From the IMG/VR virus record IMGVR_UViG_3300044953_000572, positions 1 to 60,512 of that record: a stretch of 60,512 nt of DNA. One strand, 5' to 3'. This DNA comes from a virus. Lineage: Duplodnaviria > Caudoviricetes. Shown here piece after piece: positions 31,751 through 44,584 of the stretch. Position 1 is the first letter of the stretch. Each line of letters opens with the position of its first letter. The notes beneath the pieces are model-generated. The model worked only from the letters and a program-made list of their open reading frames with translations, was not told the DNA's origin and did not search any database. The position numbers and the translations under genes were made by a program.

Positions 31751-32172
31751 CCCGCCACCAACAGCATAGTTAGTCTGCTTTAGGGTGGCGGGTGGCGCAA
31801 AAAAATGGGCTCGCCAATGCTCCGCCACTCGCCACTGAAACATGCGGTGGCGTATCGTTTAAAACCCAACGAGAAAAACATTAAAATTTCACTAATCCTT
31901 GAAAATACCAGGTTTTTTGTATTTTTGATGTGATCCGCTGATCCGCTAATGATCCGCTAATGATCCGCTGAAAAATTTTTAAAAACATAAGAAAAAAACA
32001 GGTTTTTCTTCTATTTGATCCGCTGATCTTCTAATTTTTTTAATTATATATATTTATATATGGTGGCGGAGTGGCGAGGTGGCGTAAATCCGCCACTCTG
32101 CCACGGCGCCACTCGAAATATACATATAAGCTATAGGGCGATTTTTAGCGGAATTAGCGGATCAGCGGATCA
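31751..32172. repeat. Iteron-rich candidate phage replication origin (origin 2)
   Basis: TGATCCGC repeats at 31931, 31939, 31950, 31961, 32016 and inverted copies at about 32145-32172; CGCCAC/GTGGCG repeats in both orientations; AT-rich core at about 32030-32061. Confidence 0.7.
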
Positions 32173-35444: not shown

Positions 35445-35933
35445 ATGAGAGACAAAGAATTAAATAAATCTAAAAAAGCCAACAAAACCTCATTTAAGGC
35501 AGGGACTGCCCCAAACCCAAATGGTAACGGCGGCCAAAGGTCTAATGAGCCTGGCAGAAATCCATCTGGCAAAGGCGGTCAGCAACCTGGTGAGCCTAGT
35601 CGTAACTCCAAAAAAATAGAATATGACATTGAATTGAAGAAATTATGCAAAAAAAGAACCTTGAAATGGTTTAAATTGATGGATTTATTCATAACCAAAG
35701 GCGAGGACGAGAAAGGTGAGAAAATAACCAATGGCAGAGCGTCTCTTTTAATGAAAGGACTAGAAATTGGCAATGGGTATGTGAAACAGCATGATAAAGA
35801 GGATGGGGACACCAATTATAGGGAAATTGCCAACAATATGTCCGCGCAGCTGTATGAGGTTATGAAAGAAAATCAAGTTTTAAAAGAGGAAATCGAGGCG
35901 CTAAAATCGGGGCAGATGAGTGCTGAAAAATAA
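35445..35933 (+). CDS. Putative terminase small subunit
   Basis: FKAGTAPNPNG/GRNPSG motifs; directly upstream of and overlapping terL. Confidence 0.6.
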   Translation: MRDKELNKSKKANKTSFKAGTAPNPNGNGGQRSNEPGRNPSGKGGQQPGEPSRNSKKIEYDIELKKLCKKRTLKWFKLMDLFITKGEDEKGEKITNGRASLLMKGLEIGNGYVKQHDKEDGDTNYREIANNMSAQLYEVMKENQVLKEEIEALKSGQMSAEK

Positions 35934-37518
35934 GCGATTTTATAATATAGAAGAATTAGAGGCGTTTATTGAAGAGAACAAAAAAGAAAGAGAATTAACG
36001 CAGTCATTCCACGCCTTTGTTAAAGCTTGCTGGCATGTTATTGAAGGCAATAAGCCGTTTATCGATTCTTGGCATATTGGCGCTATCTGCGAGCATTTGG
36101 AAGCTTTGCATCGCTTGGAAATCAGAAAATTGATAATTAACGTTCCACCGAGGTCGTCCAAGAGCACGATATCAACCATTATGTGGCCCGTATGGACGTG
36201 GTTGCATGACCCCTCACTGCAATACTTTTGTCTTTCCCACAGCGATGATTTAGCGACTAGGCATGGAGTATTATCAAGAGATATTATTACCAGTCCTTGG
36301 TTTAAGTCTCGTTGGGGCGATTTATTTACGATTAAGCAAGACCAGAATAACAAGCATATGTACGTCAATAATAAAACAGGGTTCAGAGAGTCCTGCGGCA
36401 TATTAGCCAAAATCACTGGAAAAGGTGCCACGAGAGTGATAATTGACGATAGTAATGACGCTGAGGAATTTGAAAGCGTATCCATCAAGGTCAACGAGAA
36501 ATATAGTGGTGGGTTATCCACCCGCGTTAATAATCCAAATACTTCCACTTGGCTTTTAATTCAACAACGAACTCGTGAAAAAGATTTAACGGGGCATATT
36601 TTAGCGAATGAGAGTGATTGGGTTCACTTGTATTTGCCTATGGAATTTGAAGAAAAAAGGCGATGCGTCACGATTCCGCTGCCATCTGCGAACGGCAAGC
36701 CTTGGCGAGACCCACGCAAAAAAGAAGGTGAACTGTTGTGGCCCGATTTCTTTCCTGAAAAAGAAGTGGAGCAGCGAAAGAGATTGCTAGGGTCTTATCG
36801 TTATGCGGGTCAGTATCAACAACGACCCGCTCCATTGGAAGGCGGTCTCATCAAAAGAAAGCATTTCAATTTATGGAAGCATCCGCACTTTCCCAAATTC
36901 AAGCATGTCATCCAATCCTGGGATTTGGCTTTATCCGAGCAAGATTCATCCTGCTATTCAGCTTGCACTACTTGGGGTTTATATGAGGACAAAAATAAGT
37001 TCAGGAATCTAATGTTAATATCCGCTTGGCGCGGAAAAGTCGAATACGCTCACTTAAGAAGGGTGATTAAACGGCTTTACAATGACTATTTAGCTAAAAT
37101 CGATATAGACAACATTGAACGAGAACATACGCCATTTAGCGCTCCCGTTTCCGCTCATAGACGCATCCCTGACGTAGTTTTGATTGAGAATAAGGTCAGC
37201 GGAATTATCGCCATACAAGACTTAAGAAGAGCGGGCGTAAACGCTTTTAAGTTCAATCCCAACAAATACGGCAAGAAAGTCGAAAGACTTAAGATGGTCA
37301 GTCATTTGATTGAGGCGGGACATTTAACCTTGCAAGCTAAAGGTCCTGACTATGAAGATGTGAAGCCAGAATTCCAGGACTTTTTAAGCGAGTGTCTAGT
37401 GTTCCCTAATGGTGAGTATGACGATTACGTAGACACCATGACGCAAGTTTTGATTCGACTGTTCGAGGGTGGCTATTTGCAAAACGCTTTGGATGACACT
37501 TACGAAAAAGACGAATGA
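35920..37518 (+). CDS. terL: Terminase large subunit
   Basis: LIINVPPRSSKS, IIDD, GQYQQRP, QSWDLA, DDYVDTMTQ. Confidence 0.95.
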   Translation: MLKNKRFYNIEELEAFIEENKKERELTQSFHAFVKACWHVIEGNKPFIDSWHIGAICEHLEALHRLEIRKLIINVPPRSSKSTISTIMWPVWTWLHDPSLQYFCLSHSDDLATRHGVLSRDIITSPWFKSRWGDLFTIKQDQNNKHMYVNNKTGFRESCGILAKITGKGATRVIIDDSNDAEEFESVSIKVNEKYSGGLSTRVNNPNTSTWLLIQQRTREKDLTGHILANESDWVHLYLPMEFEEKRRCVTIPLPSANGKPWRDPRKKEGELLWPDFFPEKEVEQRKRLLGSYRYAGQYQQRPAPLEGGLIKRKHFNLWKHPHFPKFKHVIQSWDLALSEQDSSCYSACTTWGLYEDKNKFRNLMLISAWRGKVEYAHLRRVIKRLYNDYLAKIDIDNIEREHTPFSAPVSAHRRIPDVVLIENKVSGIIAIQDLRRAGVNAFKFNPNKYGKKVERLKMVSHLIEAGHLTLQAKGPDYEDVKPEFQDFLSECLVFPNGEYDDYVDTMTQVLIRLFEGGYLQNALDDTYEKDE

Positions 37519-37583: not shown

Positions 37584-37832
37584 ATGCCTAAAGTAAATAA
37601 TCTTTCCAAGAATCCTATTTTTGAAAAATTAACTAAAGAATATGGTGGGGTGGTTAATCTTGCTTCTTTTCTTGGTGTTAGTGTTTCTTCTGTATCTGGC
37701 TGGTTGAGAGACCCAAAGGCAAAAGTCCCTATAAAACATGCTATAAATATAGAAATTTTAACAAAAGGAGCTGTCAAGGCTAGGAGTCTGCGGTCTGATG
37801 TTATGAAGAACTATGAATTGGTGGCGAGATAA
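37584..37832 (+). CDS. Cro/YdaS-like HTH regulator
   Basis: YGGVVNLASFLGVSVSSVSGW...AINIEILTKGAVKARSLRSD. Confidence 0.85.
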   Translation: MPKVNNLSKNPIFEKLTKEYGGVVNLASFLGVSVSSVSGWLRDPKAKVPIKHAINIEILTKGAVKARSLRSDVMKNYELVAR

Positions 37833-40117
37833 TGGCGGAAAATTACGAAGATTATAATAATTTCCTACCACTCGCTGAGGATAATCAAGACTTAGATTTT
37901 AACGTGAACTTGGCGACTCTCTTGGATGAAGGGCAAAGAGCCATTATAGCGACCGATTTATTGGAAGGAATAAAAAAAGATAAGGAATCCAGGGACAAAT
38001 GGGAGCAAGGCTACAAAAGCGCCATGGATTACCTGGGCATAGAGCAAAAGTTCGACACTCAAACCAAGACCGTTAATTATCAGATTTATGATTCTACGCT
38101 TTTAAACTGCGTGCTTAAATTTGTAGCGACCGCTCAATCCGAACTTTACCCAGCTAAAGGAGTCGCTGATTTCGAGGTGATAACGCCTGATGGAATGGAT
38201 AACGAAACGATAAAACGTTATGGAGAACAGCAAAAAAATAGTTTGAACAACTATTTAAAGTTGGGTGATAAATCTTTTTACAAAAACTCTCAAGCGATGC
38301 TAATGCCATTAGCTTTAAACGGCTGCGTGTTTAAGAAAGTTTATAACAATCCTATAGCCAACCAACCTATTAGCCGTTACATACGCCCGCAAGACATTAT
38401 CATCAACAATAGTTGCCTGGATTTGTTAGAATCCGAAAGAATCACTCATGTACTTTATTTGACTAAAAAAGATGTTGTTTTAAACGAGAACTCCGGTTTT
38501 TTCATTGGTGGCGATAATAAATTAACTTCCGAGCAAGAAAGCGATGACCAAGATAGCTCGGAAATAAACGCCAAAACCAGAAGAATAGATGGTATTTCAG
38601 ATGATGACGATATTGACGATAAGTTTATATTTAAGCACTACGAGTCTCACGTTAGCTTAGATTATCCGTTTTTGCTGGATTTAGAACCTAACAAACCTAA
38701 CTTTCCCGTTCCTTACGTCGTAACTCTTTGCAAGCAAACGCAAAAGGTGGTCGCTATTTATCGCAATTGGCTAGAAGAAGACAGCAGTTACTCTAGAGAT
38801 AACTGCTTTGTGCAGTTTAACTATTTTTCAGGCTTTGGCTTATATGGCTATGGCATGCTGCACTTACTAGGTAACAACGCTCAGGCTCTAACATTATTAC
38901 AAAGACAGTTGTTAACCGCTGGCAGTATGGCGAACTATCCCGCTTATTTCAAGGCCAAGGGATTGAAGGTTGAACATCCTAACGTTGATTTGCAGCCCGG
39001 CCAGTCAATTGATGTGGAAACTGGCGCGCTTCCCATAACCCAAGCGGTTATGCCATTGCCATTCAAAGGCGCTGACCCCGTACTCGCCGAACTAAAGCAA
39101 GCTTTAAAAGCGGATACCGAGCAAACGGGTTCAATCGCAGACACTAAACTCGCTGAAATCAATAGCAATGCCCCTGTTGGAACTACAGTCGCTTTATTAG
39201 AAACTCAACAAAAATTTCAATCATCAGTTATTCGTTCTTGCTATGATTCTCTCGCTCAAGAACTACAAATGATTTATAAGCAGTTAGTTCCATCACCCGC
39301 AAATCCAGAAGAATTGCAGCTCTATCACAGCATTAGGATTATTCCCGCTGCCGACCCTACGTTTTCGACCAACCTACAGCGTATTATGAAAGCGGACGCA
39401 ATATTAAGAACCGCTTCAAACGCTCCCCAGTTGCATAATATGCGAGAGGTGTTTAGTCGATTTTATACGACAATTGGCGTTGAGAATATCGAGCAAATTT
39501 TGCCGTTAGAGCCTAATCCAATGCCACTAGACCCTATTACTGAAAACATGAACATTTTAAATAACAAAGCCATTAGAGCGGAGATGTGGCAAGACCACAC
39601 CTCTCACATCATTTGCCATCAAGTTTTTGCTGAGCAAAATAAAAACCAAGACTTTTTACCTAATATATTGGCTCATATTCGAGAGCATTTGGCGTTTGAT
39701 TACCTTATTCAAATGCAAAAGGCTATGGGTATTCAATTGCCACCTATGGAAGCGCTGCAAAATCCGCAAATTCAAAACGCGGTAGCGATGAAAGCCGCTG
39801 AAGCGGCGCAAGCCCAAGGCATGGTGATGGACGCTGAAAAACCGCCTGAAATTACCGAAGTGGCGATGGCTGAAGTGGTTCAGAAAGATAAGGCATCCGA
39901 GCTTAAAGCGAGCGTTGATTTGCAAAAAATCGAGGGAGACTCTTATAAGGCTCAATTACAACATGAAACGGAAAAAATGAAAATTGAAGCTGAAAAAGAG
40001 ATGTTTGAGCAAAGAATGGATATGGAACTCAAGAAAATGGACACACAAAAGGAAATTGCCGAGGAGCATAACGAAGTCGAACGACAAAGAACTGACATTA
40101 TTAAACGTGAGGAGTAA
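37832..40117 (+). CDS. Portal protein
   Basis: 761 aa after terL; DKESRDKWE, FKKVY, GFGLYGYG, APVGTTVALLE; long helical C-terminus like a P22-type barrel. Confidence 0.9.
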   Translation: MAENYEDYNNFLPLAEDNQDLDFNVNLATLLDEGQRAIIATDLLEGIKKDKESRDKWEQGYKSAMDYLGIEQKFDTQTKTVNYQIYDSTLLNCVLKFVATAQSELYPAKGVADFEVITPDGMDNETIKRYGEQQKNSLNNYLKLGDKSFYKNSQAMLMPLALNGCVFKKVYNNPIANQPISRYIRPQDIIINNSCLDLLESERITHVLYLTKKDVVLNENSGFFIGGDNKLTSEQESDDQDSSEINAKTRRIDGISDDDDIDDKFIFKHYESHVSLDYPFLLDLEPNKPNFPVPYVVTLCKQTQKVVAIYRNWLEEDSSYSRDNCFVQFNYFSGFGLYGYGMLHLLGNNAQALTLLQRQLLTAGSMANYPAYFKAKGLKVEHPNVDLQPGQSIDVETGALPITQAVMPLPFKGADPVLAELKQALKADTEQTGSIADTKLAEINSNAPVGTTVALLETQQKFQSSVIRSCYDSLAQELQMIYKQLVPSPANPEELQLYHSIRIIPAADPTFSTNLQRIMKADAILRTASNAPQLHNMREVFSRFYTTIGVENIEQILPLEPNPMPLDPITENMNILNNKAIRAEMWQDHTSHIICHQVFAEQNKNQDFLPNILAHIREHLAFDYLIQMQKAMGIQLPPMEALQNPQIQNAVAMKAAEAAQAQGMVMDAEKPPEITEVAMAEVVQKDKASELKASVDLQKIEGDSYKAQLQHETEKMKIEAEKEMFEQRMDMELKKMDTQKEIAEEHNEVERQRTDIIKREE

Positions 40118-40864: not shown

Positions 40865-41278
40865 ATGGAACAACAAGAATACGTGCACGATAAGATAGAC
40901 AAGCAAATGTTAACGGAAATTATCGGTGGATTGCCAAAGAGAACACTAGGATTTTGGGTGTTATTAAAAGTTAGAGTGCCGCAAGAAGGCTGCTACAGAA
41001 ACAAGGAAGGCAATAGCACTGGCATTATTAGACCTGATTATTACGAAGAGCTGCAAAAATATCGGCAATGCGTAGGGCTTGTTATTGGGATTGGTGAACA
41101 GGCCTATAAAGGAGAGCGTTTTAACGATATGCCTTGGGTCAAGGAAGGACAGTGGGTGGTTTTCAATATCAATTCCACAGCGATTAGAATCGCTTACAAG
41201 GGTGTCCCAATGGTCATCGTTCCTGACGATTCACTTTATATGGAAGTAGAAGACCCAGACGACGTACAACCTTGGTAA
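40865..41278 (+). CDS. Phage co-chaperonin GroES-like protein
   Basis: VLLKV...TGIIRP...VGLVIGIGEQAY...WVKEGQWVVF...IVPDD. Confidence 0.8.
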   Translation: MEQQEYVHDKIDKQMLTEIIGGLPKRTLGFWVLLKVRVPQEGCYRNKEGNSTGIIRPDYYEELQKYRQCVGLVIGIGEQAYKGERFNDMPWVKEGQWVVFNINSTAIRIAYKGVPMVIVPDDSLYMEVEDPDDVQPW

Positions 41279-41292
41279 TTGGAGTGGTGGAC

Positions 41293-42276
41293 ATGAGTGA
41301 TATTATTGATTTTAGCAAAGAGGAAGACTTAGAAGCCTTGCATCCCAGCAGCGAGCAAGACGCCTTCGTGATTAGCTCTAAAGACAAGGAAAAGGAAGAG
41401 CCAAAAGCTGATGCTGAATCAGAAAAACCATTAGAACAGCCTGAGCAGCAAGAAGAGCCCATAGAAGATAAGAAAGAGCCAGAATTAGAAGAACAGCACG
41501 AAGATAAAAAAGACGAAAGAGCCTTACGACAGTTGAAAAAGTTGAAGAAAGACAAACAAGACTTAATGGCTCGAATTCAAGAATTAGAAGAACACAACCA
41601 GAAATTAAGTGACGGATTTAAAAGGGCCGATACCGCGGCTATGGAGCATTATGAAAAAAGCGTTAAGCTGCAACTAGAAGAAGCCAAACGTCTACAAGCC
41701 TCAGCGATTGAAGAAGGAGACGCGCAAAAACAAGCCGAAGCGATGGAGTTAATCGCTAAAGCAGCGGCGGATGCCAGAGCGATAGAAAATTATAAGAGAC
41801 AGCAGCCTGAAAAAGTGGAAAAAGAAGAAAAACAGCAACCCAACAATCAAAATTCACAGCCCTATAATCCAGACATTTCGAATTGGATTAGTCAAAACTC
41901 GTGGTTTAATGAAAATAGCGATGAATACGACGCTGAGATGGCGGAAGAGGTCAAGGCATACGATTTAGTTTTGTCGAGACAATATCAACGCATGGGTAAG
42001 GCGGACAAGATTGCGACCAAAGACTATTTCAAAGATATTGACAGATATGTGAGAGAGAAATTTTATATGGAAAAACCTGACGTAATAGAGCCACCCATAG
42101 AGAGGAAACCTTTTACCAAGGTCTCTCCCGTCACAAACAGGCCAACCACTCGTCACATTAGCGACATAAGATTGAGCGATGCTCAAAAAGAAATCGCGCA
42201 AAATTTAGGCATGAGCGAGGACGATTTTAAAAAGGCGGTCGCTAACCGAATCAGCAAAAATAGGGGAACGAGATGA
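41293..42276 (+). CDS. Capsid scaffolding protein
   Basis: Acidic N-terminus, coiled coil, WISQNSWF, C-terminal LSDAQKEIAQNLGMS. Confidence 0.75.
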   Translation: MSDIIDFSKEEDLEALHPSSEQDAFVISSKDKEKEEPKADAESEKPLEQPEQQEEPIEDKKEPELEEQHEDKKDERALRQLKKLKKDKQDLMARIQELEEHNQKLSDGFKRADTAAMEHYEKSVKLQLEEAKRLQASAIEEGDAQKQAEAMELIAKAAADARAIENYKRQQPEKVEKEEKQQPNNQNSQPYNPDISNWISQNSWFNENSDEYDAEMAEEVKAYDLVLSRQYQRMGKADKIATKDYFKDIDRYVREKFYMEKPDVIEPPIERKPFTKVSPVTNRPTTRHISDIRLSDAQKEIAQNLGMSEDDFKKAVANRISKNRGTR

Positions 42277-42779
42277 AATCAAAAAGACAACGTAGAGTCA
42301 GTGAATCTAGGCTGGCCGCTCAGGATATCGAGAATTTTAAAAGAAATATGTTTAATGCCGCGAACACGCCATTAACCGTGATAGGCGCGGACCCAGATTA
42401 CGACTATTATTGGTTTGCTGGGTTAGTCGCCAATCAAATCAATCCGGGTCGCTTGGAAGAAGCGGCGATGCGTAATTGGGTACCCGTCAGCGTCGATGAA
42501 ATGCCACAAATGGCTTTATCGATGCACTCTTTAACACGGGAAGCTAAAACACCCGCTGCTGATTTCATTTGCCGAGAAGGCCTTATTTTGCATAAAAGGC
42601 TTAAGGAGTGGAAGTTTCATGAAGACGAGATGCGAGTCAAGCTTAATAAAAACGTTGAGAAACAAATTAGTATCGCCGCGGGATTCGTAGGCGACTCTAG
42701 AGCAAAGGTTATTGAGAACACTAAAAGTAATGAAATGGTCTGGGGTGATGAGGACGATGAGGACAACGATATTATTTAA
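42273..42779 (+). CDS. Phage head-region protein
   Basis: PDYDYYW...WVPV...GLILHK pattern, between scaffold and capsid genes. Confidence 0.6.
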   Translation: MKSKRQRRVSESRLAAQDIENFKRNMFNAANTPLTVIGADPDYDYYWFAGLVANQINPGRLEEAAMRNWVPVSVDEMPQMALSMHSLTREAKTPAADFICREGLILHKRLKEWKFHEDEMRVKLNKNVEKQISIAAGFVGDSRAKVIENTKSNEMVWGDEDDEDNDII

Positions 42780-42864
42780 GAAAAAATTAAAAAGATTTTG
42801 TTTACTAATGAATCCGAACGTTGAATAATAAAAATATCGATGCTGTGGATGTAAAACATAGCGA

Positions 42865-43006
42865 GAGCGAAAGCTCGGTCTAACAACCAACCTCTGTGCC
42901 GTAGAGGCTTAAATTCGGCAAGAGAAGCAATTCTCGCGCAGTGCGCAACCTCGGTGCCGTAGAGGTCTCAATTCGGCAGGAGCGAAAGCTCGGGCCGTGC
43001 CCAACC
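42865..43006 (+). ncRNA. Tandem structured RNA element (about 58-nt unit x2.5: GNRA hairpin, hairpin, pseudoknot) in the capsid-operon leader
   Basis: CCTC..TGCCG.TA.GAGG..CGGCA twice; GAGC-GAAA-GCTC / GAGAA-GCAA-TTCTC / GAGC-GAAA-GCTC; compensatory changes between copies; candidate promoter TTTACT-17-AATAAT at about 42801-42829. Confidence 0.65.
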
Positions 43007-43045
43007 TTAACAAAATTAATCCATTTATTTTTTGGAGACAGTTCA

Positions 43046-43669
43046 ATGTCCGTCACTACCAATACGCCTTTTGGCTTTAGATATTATAAAAGCCTTTCTG
43101 CGGTTAATACCCAGGAAGTTTTAAACACGTATATCTGGGACAGTACCGCTGCAAGCGTCTATCAAGACATGCCAGTCGCTTTGGTTGCTACCAACGCGAA
43201 TCCACCTATTAATGGCTATACCAGAATTGCCACCGCCCCTGCAAACGGTGCAACGGTTGGTATAGTGGGAATCGCGAGAGGCGTTAAATACATAGACGCC
43301 CAAGGTAATCAACGATTCGCCAAATACTTTCTCGCCAATACGCCGATTAAAGCGGGAACCTGGGTAGAGGTTTTGGTCTCAGACGACCCCAAAACCATTT
43401 ATATGTGCCAAGCCAGCGCCGCGGTCGCTAATAACCGGATGTCTTACAACGCGCAAATTTTGAACCCAGGGGTAGGTGATAATACCACGGGAATATCGCA
43501 AGCGGTCTTAGACGCCGGCAATTTAAATACTACCGCAACGTTGCCTTTAAAAATCGTAGGCTACGTTCCACCTGAGAAGTTTCCAGGAAACGTGAATACC
43601 GCCGCTTTTCCCGTAATGCTCGTTAAGCTGAACAATCACGCTTATGGTTCAGCGCTGTTAGGATTTTAA
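43046..43669 (+). CDS. Capsid decoration/cement-like protein
   Basis: GGAG RBS, ATG at 43046; NTPFGFRY, VSDDP, LPLKIVG, VKLNNH; precedes the major capsid gene. Confidence 0.7.
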   Translation: MSVTTNTPFGFRYYKSLSAVNTQEVLNTYIWDSTAASVYQDMPVALVATNANPPINGYTRIATAPANGATVGIVGIARGVKYIDAQGNQRFAKYFLANTPIKAGTWVEVLVSDDPKTIYMCQASAAVANNRMSYNAQILNPGVGDNTTGISQAVLDAGNLNTTATLPLKIVGYVPPEKFPGNVNTAAFPVMLVKLNNHAYGSALLGF

Positions 43670-43684
43670 TAGGAGAAATAGAAA

Positions 43685-44584
43685 ATGCCATTAACTCGCG
43701 CGCAAATTGAATATGAATTATGGCCTGGCTTAGATGACGTGATGGGCGCTTATGAGACCTATCCCGATGAGTGGAAACAGATTTATAATGTTAAAGCTTC
43801 AAAAAAGGCTTATGAGAAAATATCGCAACCGAAATTATTAGGATACGCGCAACCCGTTGAGGAAGGGGCGCAAATTCCTACAGACGATGGAATGGGCGAC
43901 CAATACATCACCCAGTTTACCCATCGTAAATACGGGTTAAAATTCTCCATTACCGAGGAAGCCCAAGACGATAATCTTTATAAACAAGAATTTCCGCAAA
44001 ATACATTGGCTTTAAAACAATCGTTGAGCACCACCAAAAATACTTTGGCGGGTCTATATTTAACGAACGGGTTTGCGGGTGGAACTTCCATCGTGTCCGA
44101 TGGGTTAACTTTATTTAACGCGGCACATCCTTATGATGGTGGGGTAAACTCCAACGTAGTGAGCGGAGATTTATCTGAAGCCACATTAAATGCGGCACAA
44201 ATTCTGGCGGCGAACTTAAGATCACCTTCCGGTATTCCCATTGCGGGAACTTTAAGAAAATTAATCGCAGGCCCTGAAAATTGGTTCGCGGCTAAGAAAT
44301 TAACTGAGTCCCAATTTGAGCCTTCTAGCGCAAATAACGCGATTAACGCGGCTAAAGGGTTATTGTCTGAAGGATTTGTTATAAATCACTTTATCAGTTC
44401 CACACCTGGCAGTAGACCTTGGTTTATCCTGACTAATATGCCTGGTATGCGCTTATATCAGCGAATGAATGTGCTGTATAACATCGCGCAAGACCCAGAC
44501 AACTTTAATATTAAAGTCAGTTCTAGAGAACGCTATTCACTGGGTTGTTATGACTATCGTTCAATTATTGGATGTCAGGGATAA
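43685..44584 (+). CDS. Major capsid protein (Mu gpT-like)
   Basis: LWPGL, SKKAYE, FSITEEAQDDNLY, DGLTLFNAAHP, LSEATL, RERYSLG. Confidence 0.9.
   Translation: MPLTRAQIEYELWPGLDDVMGAYETYPDEWKQIYNVKASKKAYEKISQPKLLGYAQPVEEGAQIPTDDGMGDQYITQFTHRKYGLKFSITEEAQDDNLYKQEFPQNTLALKQSLSTTKNTLAGLYLTNGFAGGTSIVSDGLTLFNAAHPYDGGVNSNVVSGDLSEATLNAAQILAANLRSPSGIPIAGTLRKLIAGPENWFAAKKLTESQFEPSSANNAINAAKGLLSEGFVINHFISSTPGSRPWFILTNMPGMRLYQRMNVLYNIAQDPDNFNIKVSSRERYSLGCYDYRSIIGCQG

What the first reader, a model, noticed from the sequence alone, without database searches (positions are those of the whole stretch)
42836..43045. Tandem pseudoknot/GNRA RNA repeat in the leader of the capsid operon
Seen: an about 58-nt unit repeated 2.5 times. 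Each unit has hairpin A with a GNRA loop (GAGC-GAAA-GCTC, GAGAA-GCAA-TTCTC, GAGC-GAAA-GCTC) and hairpin B (GGT..ACC, GCGC-AGT-GCGC, GGGC-CGT-GCCC). The two full units then have AACCTC-n-GTGCCGTAGAGG-n8-CGGCA, where CCTC/GAGG and TGCCG/CGGCA cross as an H-type pseudoknot. Stems change sequence between copies but keep pairing. GAGG can also pair with the next unit's CCT(C/T), giving two registers. Inference: an undescribed cis-regulatory RNA, tandem aptamer, ribozyme or ToxI-like decoy (type III antitoxin RNAs are tandem pseudoknots) in front of the head genes.
Basis: partly seen in the sequence, partly recalled or inferred. Interest (0 to 1): 0.85.

Follow-up and report, generated by a model that had tools for sequence, protein, structure and literature searches.

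The report
Structured repeat leader of phage capsid operon
A lake-water phage carries a conserved, folded, non-coding RNA leader made of 2.5 repeated 58-base modules in front of its two main capsid genes; it matches no catalogued RNA family, related phages hold other repeated hairpins at the same spot, and its function is still untested.

Summary
Window 42864-43011 contains 2.5 copies of a 57-58-nt unit. Each unit has a GNRA hairpin, then a short hairpin, then AACCUC-N-GUGCCGUAGAGG-N8-CGGCA. The repeat and the GNRA hairpins are far beyond shuffles.

The element lies in the only large gap of the structural module. It sits behind a promoter-like site and ahead of a capsid-auxiliary-like gene and the major capsid gene of an HTVC023P/Pag-Yong1-like phage.

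- Conservation: against its closest relative the leader is 93-100% identical, while the flanking genes are 72-86% identical.
- Substitutions: five of the twelve differences fall in the short hairpins. All five keep or restore pairing (two double compensatory changes, one repair).
- Pseudoknot: geometrically and energetically plausible, and its stems never vary. It therefore has no covariation support.
- Databases: no Rfam match, no toxin partner, no RNA-seq data.

The new context is that sister clades carry, at the same position, a terminator, a strong promoter and 2-4 tandem hairpins (YCGAY, a 5-bp covarying stem, a UYACGUAY loop). I found these in at least 54 distinct leaders.

Best reading (about 0.5): a cis-acting 5' leader that sets the stability or translation of the capsid mRNA, possibly as a protein-binding platform. 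Decoy, riboswitch and ribozyme readings remain unproven.

The parts
42801..42829 (+). Promoter-like site: TTTACT (42801-06), 17-nt spacer, AATAAT (42824-29). It predicts a transcript start near 42836.
   Evidence: 9 of 12 matches; such sites are not above chance in this genome. Neither hexamer differs in L004, while 5 spacer or flank positions do (42800, 42810, 42814, 42815, 42820, 42830). Sister clades have a strong TTGACA-17-TAnnnT promoter at the same place. The transcript start is not mapped.
42836..42862 (+). 5' end of the leader: AUCGAU followed by hairpin H0 (GCUGUG, 9-nt loop, CAUAGC; 42842-62; one G.U pair).
   Evidence: -7.6 kcal/mol, z = -2.95, 1 of 200 shuffles as good. Invariant in L004 and L003. 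The YCGAY-plus-hairpin design is shared with the sister-clade leaders.
42864..42920 (+). Unit 1: HpA GAGC-GAAA-GCUC; HpB GGUC-UAAC-(A)ACC; AACCUC linker; possible pseudoknot S1 42891-94/42904-07 and S2 42897-901/42916-20.
   Evidence: 42885 A>G in L004/L003 and in run X6 turns the C.A mismatch of HpB1 into C-G.
42921..42978 (+). Unit 2: HpA GAGAA-GCAA-UUCUC; HpB GCGC-AGU-GCGC; AACCUC linker; possible pseudoknot S1 42949-52/42962-65 and S2 42955-59/42974-78.
   Evidence: 42937 C>G with 42945 G>C is compensatory in L004/L003 and in X6. 42944 C>U in X6 gives G.U.
42979..43011 (+). Partial unit 3: HpA GAGC-GAAA-GCUC; HpB GGGC-CGU-GCCC; then AACCUUAAC.
   Evidence: 42992 G>A with 43002 C>U is compensatory in L004/L003, but the same pair is A.A in L201 and X6. 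CAACCTTAAC resembles CAACCTTTAAC, which follows the last hairpin of sister leaders.
43012..43048 (+). A/U-rich unstructured spacer, Shine-Dalgarno GGAG (43034-37) and start codon ATG (43046-48).
   Evidence: 35 of 35 positions (43011-43045) are identical to L004. Only a weak 4-bp UCCA/UGGA hairpin is predicted. The N-terminus aligns with the ~198-aa homologues.
43046..43669 (+). 207-aa gene, a likely capsid auxiliary (decoration/cement-like) protein. It is the first gene of the transcription unit.
   Evidence: phrog_37556, function unknown. AlphaFold2 pLDDT 79, all-beta. Best sensible Foldseek rows are capsid chains: 9ocb_J prob 0.77, 8hdt_G 0.54, 7kmx_a 0.25; none reaches E <= 0.001. The gene is syntenic across the family.
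43685..44584 (+). Major capsid protein gene (299 aa).
   Evidence: PF25209, E = 1.6e-10. tblastn gives 33-37% identity to the capsid proteins of Pag-Yong1, MinM2 and HTVC023P.

Best explanation
The element is the 5' untranslated leader of the transcription unit that makes the two most abundant head proteins (a capsid-auxiliary protein and the major capsid protein) of an HTVC023P/Pag-Yong1-like phage.

**Proposed working.**
- An internal promoter about 10 nt upstream starts an RNA whose first ~175 nt fold into a row of short, compact helices: H0, then 2.5 modules of GNRA hairpin, short hairpin and a probable H-type pseudoknot.
- An open, A/U-rich ribosome-binding region follows.
- The folded array acts in cis on the fate of this mRNA. 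It shields the 5' end and the long untranslated stretch from 5'-end-dependent RNases and from Rho.
- Because the pseudoknot parts are conserved in sequence and repeated, they probably also serve as repeated docking sites for a protein that tunes translation or decay.

**What is shown and what is inferred.**
- Shown: the position, the strong purifying selection, the + strand helices with compensatory changes, and analogous arrays at the same place in relatives.
- Inferred: the transcript start, the pseudoknot, and the effect on stability or translation.
For: - **Position.** It is the only gap over 100 nt in the tightly packed structural module 35.4-59.9 kb. It lies directly before the 207-aa gene and the capsid gene.
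- **Promoter.** The promoter hexamers are unchanged in L004, while the spacer varies.
- **Selection.** Leader 42836-43010 is 163/175 (93.1%) identical to L004, and 43011-43045 is 35/35. The flanking genes are 71.9-85.8% identical, with third codon positions at 48-71%.
- **Structure.** Of the 12 differences, 5 lie in proposed stems, all in HpB, and all keep or create pairs. The other 7 lie in loops or linkers. 97 of 98 cells are paired, against 32-45% when the 3' partners are slid.
- **Third haplotype.** Run X6 repeats the HpB2 compensatory pair and adds a G.U pair.
- **Strand.** The G.U pairs and the GNRA loops fit the + strand only.
- **Family context.** The synteny ~320 aa - ~155 aa - gap - ~200 aa - capsid gene was measured in 51 loci, and 18 have a gap over 100 nt.
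- **Sister leaders.** They show terminator, TTGACA-type promoter, then 2-4 hairpins starting a few nt after the -10 element, then the RBS. 74 of 125 loci have clusters of 2-3 such hairpins. In 50 distinct loop-anchored 23-mers from 54 leaders, the four inner stem pairs are canonical in 45-50 of 50, with several pair types each.
- **Shared pieces.** The window shares the AUCGAU start, the UGCCG/CGGCA hairpin with its AACCU linker, and the CAACCUU(U)AAC tail with those leaders.
- **Bounded unit.** In sister clades a GC-rich hairpin follows the capsid gene, which bounds a short, presumably abundant mRNA.
Against: - No transcript data exist: no RNA run holds the stretch.
- The promoter-like site is weak (9 of 12), and such sites are not enriched in this genome (33 found against 43 expected).
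- A plain 5' stabiliser needs one terminal hairpin. It does not need 2.5 elaborate, sequence-conserved modules.
- 33 of 51 related loci manage with a gap of 94 nt or less, so the array is not essential to the operon.
- Nested-fold energies of the units are no better than shuffles.
- No binding protein is identified.
- Only two full haplotypes and one partial haplotype exist, so the covariation rests on three base pairs.
Confidence: 0.5

Rival explanations
1. Trans-acting decoy RNA. The repeated pseudoknot modules are released from the abundant late transcript and soak up a host factor. One candidate is the endoribonuclease toxin of a type III toxin-antitoxin or abortive-infection system, as with pseudo-ToxI of phage PhiTE.
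For: Tandem repeats of a pseudoknot-capable unit in a phage intergenic region have a precedent. PhiTE carries 1.5 ToxI-like repeats, and its escape mutants expand them to 4.5-5.5 copies (PMC3475682, passages read). The pseudoknot part is the most conserved part between units and between genomes. Each related clade has a different hairpin type at this site, as an arms race might produce.
Against: - There is no ToxN-like gene here: no Pfam or PADLOC hit for the flanking proteins.
- The unit is 57-58 nt and the two units differ strongly in HpA and HpB, unlike the near-identical 36-nt ToxI repeats.
- A scan of 185,579 species genomes for the core pattern gave only single hits. None of the fetched rows had the CCTC context of the unit, but the scan stopped at 120 rows.
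- The arrays are always tied to the same operon and its promoter in 54 or more leaders.
Confidence: 0.12
2. Tandem riboswitch. Each module is an aptamer for a small molecule, and ligand binding adjusts capsid gene expression.
For: A compact multi-helix unit with a GNRA loop and a pseudoknot, conserved unpaired nucleotides and a tandem arrangement all resemble aptamers. It lies in a 5' leader.
Against: - No match to any Rfam riboswitch, even at E up to 10.
- No expression platform. No terminator-like site lies on the + strand in the leader, and the SD lies in an open A/U-rich stretch with only a weak 4-bp alternative.
- Sister clades put quite different simple hairpins at the same place.
- The motif was found in only 2 other IMG/VR contigs and 1 further metagenome contig, not across bacteria.
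Confidence: 0.1
3. Processive antitermination RNA of the HK022 put kind. Promoter-proximal hairpins bind RNA polymerase and let it read through the ~17-kb late operon.
For: Tandem hairpins lie directly behind a promoter, at the head of a long one-strand operon running from 43046 to about 59868. The put architecture itself is recalled, not checked in any call.
Against: No convincing intrinsic terminator lies in an intergenic position downstream on the + strand. The gaps there are 38 nt or less. In sister clades a GC-rich hairpin right after the capsid gene suggests that the unit is meant to end there.
Confidence: 0.1
4. Self-cleaving ribozyme repeats, or processing sites that cut the leader.
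For: Small pseudoknotted units are typical of small ribozymes, and many of those occur in phages (recalled).
Against: No hit to hammerhead, twister, pistol, hatchet, HDV-like or any other Rfam ribozyme model at E up to 10. ARAGORN finds no tRNA-like gene. Nothing in the calls points to a cleavage site.
Confidence: 0.03
5. A DNA-level element, such as protein-binding inverted repeats, an origin or a packaging site, rather than an RNA.
For: The repeats and inverted repeats exist in the DNA as well.
Against: - Compensatory changes keep the pairing, not the sequence.
- G.U pairs and GNRA loops are strand-specific.
- The + strand folds better than the - strand.
- The promoter and RBS frame the element.
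- A separate iteron cluster elsewhere in the window is a better origin candidate.
Confidence: 0.03

Closest known systems
Tandem YCGAY / 5-bp stem / UYACGUAY-loop hairpin leader of sister clades
   Same: It has the same genomic position, before the ~200-aa gene and the capsid gene and behind a promoter. It is also a tandem array at the 5' end of the transcript. It shares the AUCGAU start, the UGCCG/CGGCA hairpin preceded by AACCU, and the CAACCUU(U)AAC tail.
   Different: The window has no UYACGUAY loop. Its UGCCG/CGGCA hairpin has a 14-nt loop with GAGG that can pair with the upstream CCUC. It also has three added GNRA-hairpin plus short-hairpin pairs, arranged as 58-nt repeats. One sister leader (L499) begins with a GGAGC-GAAA-GUUCC hairpin and may be intermediate.
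ToxI / pseudo-ToxI (type III antitoxin RNAs; PMC3475682, passages read)
   Same: Tandem direct repeats of a unit that can form a pseudoknot, in a phage intergenic region, in 2.5 copies.
   Different: The unit is 57-58 nt rather than 36 nt. The copies have diverged in two of their helices. There is no ToxN-family gene next to it. No cleavage site is known.
Autoregulatory pseudoknot leader of T4 gene 32 (as described in PMC10690425, passages read)
   Same: A pseudoknot-containing 5' leader directly upstream of a highly expressed phage gene. It would be a model for protein binding to the leader to set translation.
   Different: The T4 leader has a single pseudoknot rather than a repeat. The binding protein is known there and unknown here. 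No sequence or Rfam relation was found.
5'-terminal stabiliser hairpins of bacterial and phage mRNAs (for example the ompA leader; recalled, not checked in any call)
   Same: Stable helices within a few nt of the predicted 5' end of a very abundant mRNA, followed by an open ribosome-binding region.
   Different: Known stabilisers are single hairpins without conserved loops. This element has repeated multi-helix modules under sequence constraint.
Tandem exoribonuclease-resistant pseudoknot RNAs of flaviviruses (recalled, not checked in any call)
   Same: Duplicated compact pseudoknotted modules in a viral untranslated region that could block a 5'-3' nuclease.
   Different: Those lie in 3' UTRs of eukaryotic RNA viruses. 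No structural or sequence relation was tested here.

Membership tests
Type III antitoxin RNA (ToxI/CptI/TenpI-like) | It lies directly upstream of a ToxN/AbiQ/CptN/TenpN-family endoribonuclease gene. | tested here: not met
   The downstream 207-aa and upstream 168-aa proteins have no Pfam hit at E <= 0.01 and no PADLOC hit at E <= 1. The 207-aa protein is all-beta, and its best sensible fold matches are capsid auxiliary chains.
Type III antitoxin RNA (ToxI/CptI/TenpI-like) | Near-identical short tandem repeats (36 nt in ToxI). | tested here: not met
   The units are 57-58 nt. The 37-nt pseudoknot part is 86% identical between copies. HpA and HpB differ in sequence and length. The ToxI repeat length is taken from PMC3475682.
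Type III antitoxin RNA (ToxI/CptI/TenpI-like) | Each unit folds into a pseudoknot that binds, and is cut out by, the toxin. | not testable with these tools
   Pseudoknot pairing is possible, but no toxin is known and no RNA data exist.
Known riboswitch or ribozyme classes (Rfam 15) | A match to the family covariance model. | tested here: not met
   0 matches at gathering score in the 60,512-nt window. The 3 matches at E up to 10 in 42600-43200 are unrelated.
Riboswitch (generic) | An expression platform: a terminator or an SD-sequestering helix that alternates with the aptamer. | tested here: inconclusive
   No + strand terminator-like site in the leader. Only a 4-bp UCCA/UGGA helix touches the SD. 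By eye, a 5-bp GUCUC (42965-69) / GAGAC (43035-39) pairing is possible but has no support.
Tandem UYACGUAY hairpin leader of sister clades | Position between the ~155-aa gene and the ~200-aa/capsid genes, behind a promoter. | tested here: met
Tandem UYACGUAY hairpin leader of sister clades | A 5-bp stem with the 8-nt loop U[CUA]ACGUA[UC], preceded by YCGAY, in 2-4 copies. | tested here: not met
   The window has AUCGAU plus one hairpin with a different 9-nt loop, and UGCCG/CGGCA stems with 14-nt loops. No UYACGUAY loop is present in 42836-43045 (compared with the sister-leader loops).
5'-terminal stabiliser hairpin | A stable hairpin within a few nt of the mapped 5' end. | tested here: inconclusive
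   H0 starts 6 nt after the predicted start. The start is predicted only, and no RNA run exists.
put-like processive antitermination RNA | Terminators downstream that must be read through. | tested here: not met
   No intergenic + strand terminator-like site downstream. The gaps are 38 nt or less.

The most novel reading that the evidence does not exclude
The window's 58-nt modules and the widespread UYACGUAY triple hairpins would be lineage-specific versions of one undescribed regulatory system of capsid operons in HTVC023P-like phages. In it, repeated RNA modules at the 5' end of the decoration/capsid mRNA are docking sites for a multimeric protein. The most attractive candidate is unassembled capsid-auxiliary or capsid protein made from the same mRNA. 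Head-protein synthesis would then be tuned to assembly (autogenous control, as with T4 gp32). Alternatively, the modules could be compact nuclease-blocking knots, a bacterial counterpart of viral exonuclease-resistant RNAs.
Probability: 0.2. Interest if true: 0.75.

Novelty: new member of a known kind. Interest (0 to 1): 0.5.

Why it matters
[quoted passage not shown] Their freshwater and cyanobacterial relatives share this head module. How such phages set the very high output of capsid proteins is unknown.

This finding gives:
- a conserved structured leader that is absent from Rfam;
- a much larger sister motif with clear covariation at the same position;
- a natural series of variants (no leader, simple hairpin arrays, 58-nt modules) that makes the question testable with reporters and probing.

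If the modules bind a protein or block nucleases, they would be compact, portable parts for controlling mRNA fate.

Tried and rejected
- **RNA-seq.** The look-up of sequencing runs listed 24 holders, none on record as RNA. No RNA holder is listed, so expression could not be examined.
- **Read laying on runs X3-X6.** Only contigs were laid. X3, X4 and X5 gave window-identical pieces or short unrelated pieces. Only record 10 of X6 was informative.
- **Covariance model of the single unit.** Abandoned. MAFFT put HpA and HpB of U1 and U2 out of register, so no consistent consensus structure could be written. No model was built.
- **Loose pattern scans.** GCCGTAGAGG-N6-10-CGGC in viral contigs gave 117+ rows. 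GTGCCGTAGAGG-N6-10-CGGCA in species genomes gave 120+ rows. Of the rows fetched from the two scans, only 6 loci had CCTC within 10 nt upstream, and all 6 lie in unrelated GC-rich sequence. Absence from bacteria is therefore not shown.
- **More specific scans.** They found only L003 and L004.
- **blastn against phage records.** The 3.3-kb region gave no match.
- **Literature.** String searches for the sister loop sequence gave only unrelated papers. 'Mu-gpT-DE' gave one unrelated methods paper. PMC10690425 lists 8,495 IMG/VR candidate RNAs, including five upstream of a capsid domain. Its supplementary alignments were not open to me, so the sister motif or this one may already be catalogued there.
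- **Shuffle control of the count of structure pairs.** It is uninformative with 2 distinct rows: 121 of 500 shuffles reached the observed value.
Full report
**1. What is there**

The window is a 60.5-kb IMG/VR virus record of 40% G+C. Genes on the + strand from about 35.4 kb to 59.9 kb form a tightly packed structural module:
- large terminase, 35920-37518;
- portal, 37832-40117;
- a GroES-like gene;
- a 334-aa protein with a weak hit to the Mu-like prophage protein I family, 41272-42276;
- a 168-aa protein, 42273-42779;
- a 266-nt gap;
- a 207-aa protein, 43046-43669;
- the major capsid protein, 43685-44584 (PF25209, E = 1.6e-10).

This gap is the only one over 100 nt in the module.

By tblastn the capsid protein is 33-37% identical to those of Planktothrix phage Pag-Yong1, Synechococcus phage MinM2, Pelagibacter phages HTVC023P and HTVC027P, and Roseobacter phages CRP-901 and CRP-902. 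Pag-Yong1 and HTVC023P show the same gene order.

The 207-aa protein folds as an all-beta protein (pLDDT 79). Its only sensible Foldseek rows are capsid auxiliary chains: Sf11 9ocb_J prob 0.77, cyanophage Pam3 8hdt_G 0.54, XM1 7kmx_a 0.25. None reaches E <= 0.001.

**2. The observation**

The gap contains:
- a promoter-like site, TTTACT-17-AATAAT, at 42801-42829;
- AUCGAU plus hairpin H0, 42836-42862;
- two full units (42864-42920 and 42921-42978) and one partial unit (42979-43011);
- an A/U-rich spacer with GGAG (43034-37) and ATG (43046).

Each unit has a GNRA hairpin (HpA) abutting a 4-bp hairpin (HpB). The full units continue with AACCUC-N-GUGCCGUAGAGG-N8-CGGCA.

| Test | Observed | Control |
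|---|---|---|
| Best 37-nt direct repeat | 32 of 37 matches | shuffle maximum 24; 0 of 1000 reach 32 |
| 4-bp GNRA hairpins | 3 | shuffle mean 0.15; 1 of 2000 with 3 or more |
| Watson-Crick H-type arrangement (S1 >= 4, S2 >= 5) | present in both units | 14/3000 and 6/3000 shuffles; 80/12096 genomic 37-mers |

The repeat finder finds the 58-nt register. TRF does not.

S1 alone evaluates to -3.5 and -4.8 kcal/mol, and S2 alone to -6.2. The best nested fold of the same segments is -6.4 and -6.2. Forming both stems would therefore be favourable, but ViennaRNA cannot score a pseudoknot.

Nested folding of single units is no better than shuffles (z = -0.83, -0.46, -1.33). H0 is better (z = -2.95).

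**3. Conservation and covariation**

Only a narrow clade has this element:
- IMG/VR contigs L004 (the same contig as L002 and L202) and L003;
- the metagenome contig L201, which starts inside unit 2;
- a variant contig in run X6.

The L003 and L004 leaders are identical to each other.

| Region (window vs L004) | Identity |
|---|---|
| Leader 42836-43010 | 163/175 (93.1%) |
| Spacer 43011-43045 | 35/35 |
| 168-aa gene | 82.5% |
| 207-aa gene | 71.9% |
| Capsid gene | 83.8% |
| Third codon positions of the flanking genes | 48-71% |

The non-coding leader is therefore the best conserved stretch of the region.

The 12 differences are placed as follows:
- 42885: repairs the C.A mismatch of HpB1 to C-G.
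- 42937 + 42945: C-G becomes G-C in HpB2.
- 42992 + 43002: G-C becomes A-U in HpB3.
- 42996: loop of HpB3.
- 42863, 42890, 42948, 42953, 42979 and 43007: linkers, junctions and pseudoknot loop L1.

None lies in HpA, S1, S2 or the 8-nt L3 loops.

X6 repeats the HpB2 double change, adds 42944 C>U (G-C becomes G.U), and repeats 42885. Against the trend, X6 and L201 have A.A at the outer pair of HpB3.

Formally, 97 of 98 cells pair, against 32-45% when the 3' partners are slid. Two pairs change on both sides. With two distinct rows the shuffle control says nothing.

Between the two paralogous units, the five differences in the 37-nt pseudoknot segment all fall outside S1 and S2.

Conclusions from this section:
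- HpB is supported by compensation.
- HpA is supported by different stems in U1/U3 and U2.
- S2 is supported by homology with a covarying hairpin of sister clades (section 5).
- S1, and hence the pseudoknot, is supported only by invariance and geometry.

**4. What it is not**

- **Rfam.** No family matches. ARAGORN finds no tRNA or tmRNA.
- **Other copies.** There is no second copy in the window.
- **Terminator.** There is none on the + strand inside the leader.
- **ToxN-like neighbour.** There is none.
- **Bacterial genomes.** A pattern scan gave only single, unrelated-looking hits among the 120 rows returned.
- **RNA runs.** None holds the region.

**5. Family context (the main new point)**

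In 51 distant relatives (capsid protein 28-39% identical) the order ~320 aa - ~155 aa - gap - ~200 aa - capsid gene is kept. 33 have a gap of 94 nt or less, and 18 have more than 100 nt.

Several long gaps hold a terminator, a strong TTGACA-17-TAnnnT promoter and then tandem hairpins of the form YCGAY - 5-bp stem - U[CUA]ACGUA[UC] - stem.

- 74 of the 125 loci examined have clusters of 2-3 such hairpins. Some contigs are represented twice.
- In nearly all of the leaders printed the last hairpin lies within about 60 nt of the ~198-aa gene's start codon (where the printed distance is ~650 nt, my ORF finder missed that gene and gave the distance to the capsid gene).
- Collected by loop alone, 54 distinct leaders give 50 distinct 23-mers.
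- Their inner four stem pairs are canonical in 45, 48, 50 and 50 of 50, with several pair types each. For example, pair 3 is UA 18, CG 18, GC 6, AU 4.
- Within four such contigs the motif occurs only in this leader.
- It has no Rfam match.

AT-rich relatives (L205, L206, L209) carry yet another repeated hairpin.

The window's leader shares several pieces with the UYACGUAY leaders:
- the AUCGAU start;
- a UGCCG/CGGCA hairpin preceded by AACCU;
- the tail CAACCUU(U)AAC before the RBS.

One sister leader (L499) starts with a GGAGC-GAAA-GUUCC hairpin like HpA. In sister clades a GC-rich hairpin follows the capsid gene.

The window's element therefore looks like a derived, expanded version of an older hairpin-array leader of a short, heavily used decoration/capsid transcription unit.

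**6. Mechanism**

Shown:
- the position;
- purifying selection stronger than on the neighbouring genes;
- + strand helices;
- the recurrence of arrays at the 5' end of this operon.

Inferred:
- transcription from about 42836;
- folding of the modules, with the pseudoknot;
- a cis effect on mRNA stability or translation;
- possibly, repeated protein docking.

I put this reading at about 0.5. The rivals are a trans-acting decoy (0.12; precedent pseudo-ToxI, PMC3475682), a tandem riboswitch (0.10), put-like antitermination (0.10), a ribozyme (0.03) and a DNA-level element (0.03).

**7. Novelty**

I found neither motif in Rfam 15 or in the papers I could search. A catalogue of 8,495 IMG/VR candidate RNAs exists (PMC10690425), but I could not see its supplements.

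I rate the element a new member of a known kind (a structured phage mRNA leader) with an unusual modular build.

Noticed in passing
L128:3269-3345, L143:2618-2704, L404:4634-4712 and at least 54 distinct leaders among L121-L511: A widespread tandem hairpin motif: YCGAY, a 5-bp covarying stem and an 8-nt loop U[CUA]ACGUA[UC], in 2-4 copies about 26-31 nt apart. It lies directly behind a terminator and a strong sigma-70-type promoter, and 30-57 nt before the ~198-aa gene that precedes the capsid gene. It has no Rfam match. Both ACGU in the loop and UCGA in the flank are self-complementary.
   Followed up: partly
L205:2865-3198, L206:2827-3076, L209:2805-3063: AT-rich relatives with a different gene order have another repeated leader hairpin before the gene that precedes the capsid gene. 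An example is U(G/A)CGA, an A-rich loop, then UCG(C/U)A, in L205 and L206.
   Followed up: no
window 31932-32024 (+) and 32156-32171 (-): There are seven exact copies of GATCCGCT: four nearly contiguous, one 48 nt further on, and two inverted. 0 of 100 shuffles reach 7. They lie in and just after the 309-nt gap behind the primase and helicase genes. This looks like an iteron cluster, possibly a replication origin or operator.
   Followed up: partly
L128:4916-4937, L131:4914-4935, L203:4920-4950, L123:4920-4950: A GC-rich hairpin lies directly after the capsid gene in sister clades. It is a terminator proper in L123. The window has only 16 nt there and no hairpin.
   Followed up: partly
L430:5746-5817, L475:2725-2796: The stretch UUAACUUCA lies a few nt before the SD of the ~198-aa gene. 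It resembles, from memory only, the translational enhancer in the T7 gene 10 leader. The window has CUUAACAAAAUUAAUCC at the same place.
   Followed up: no
window 42747-42764: A perfect tandem GATGAGGAC x2 lies inside the 3' end of the 168-aa gene and encodes an acidic tail. It is coding sequence and not part of the leader.
   Followed up: no
window 42965-42969 and 43035-43039: GUCUC in loop L3 of unit 2 is complementary to GAGAC, which overlaps the Shine-Dalgarno sequence. Both are invariant in the relatives. This is a possible but unsupported long-range SD-masking pair.
   Followed up: no
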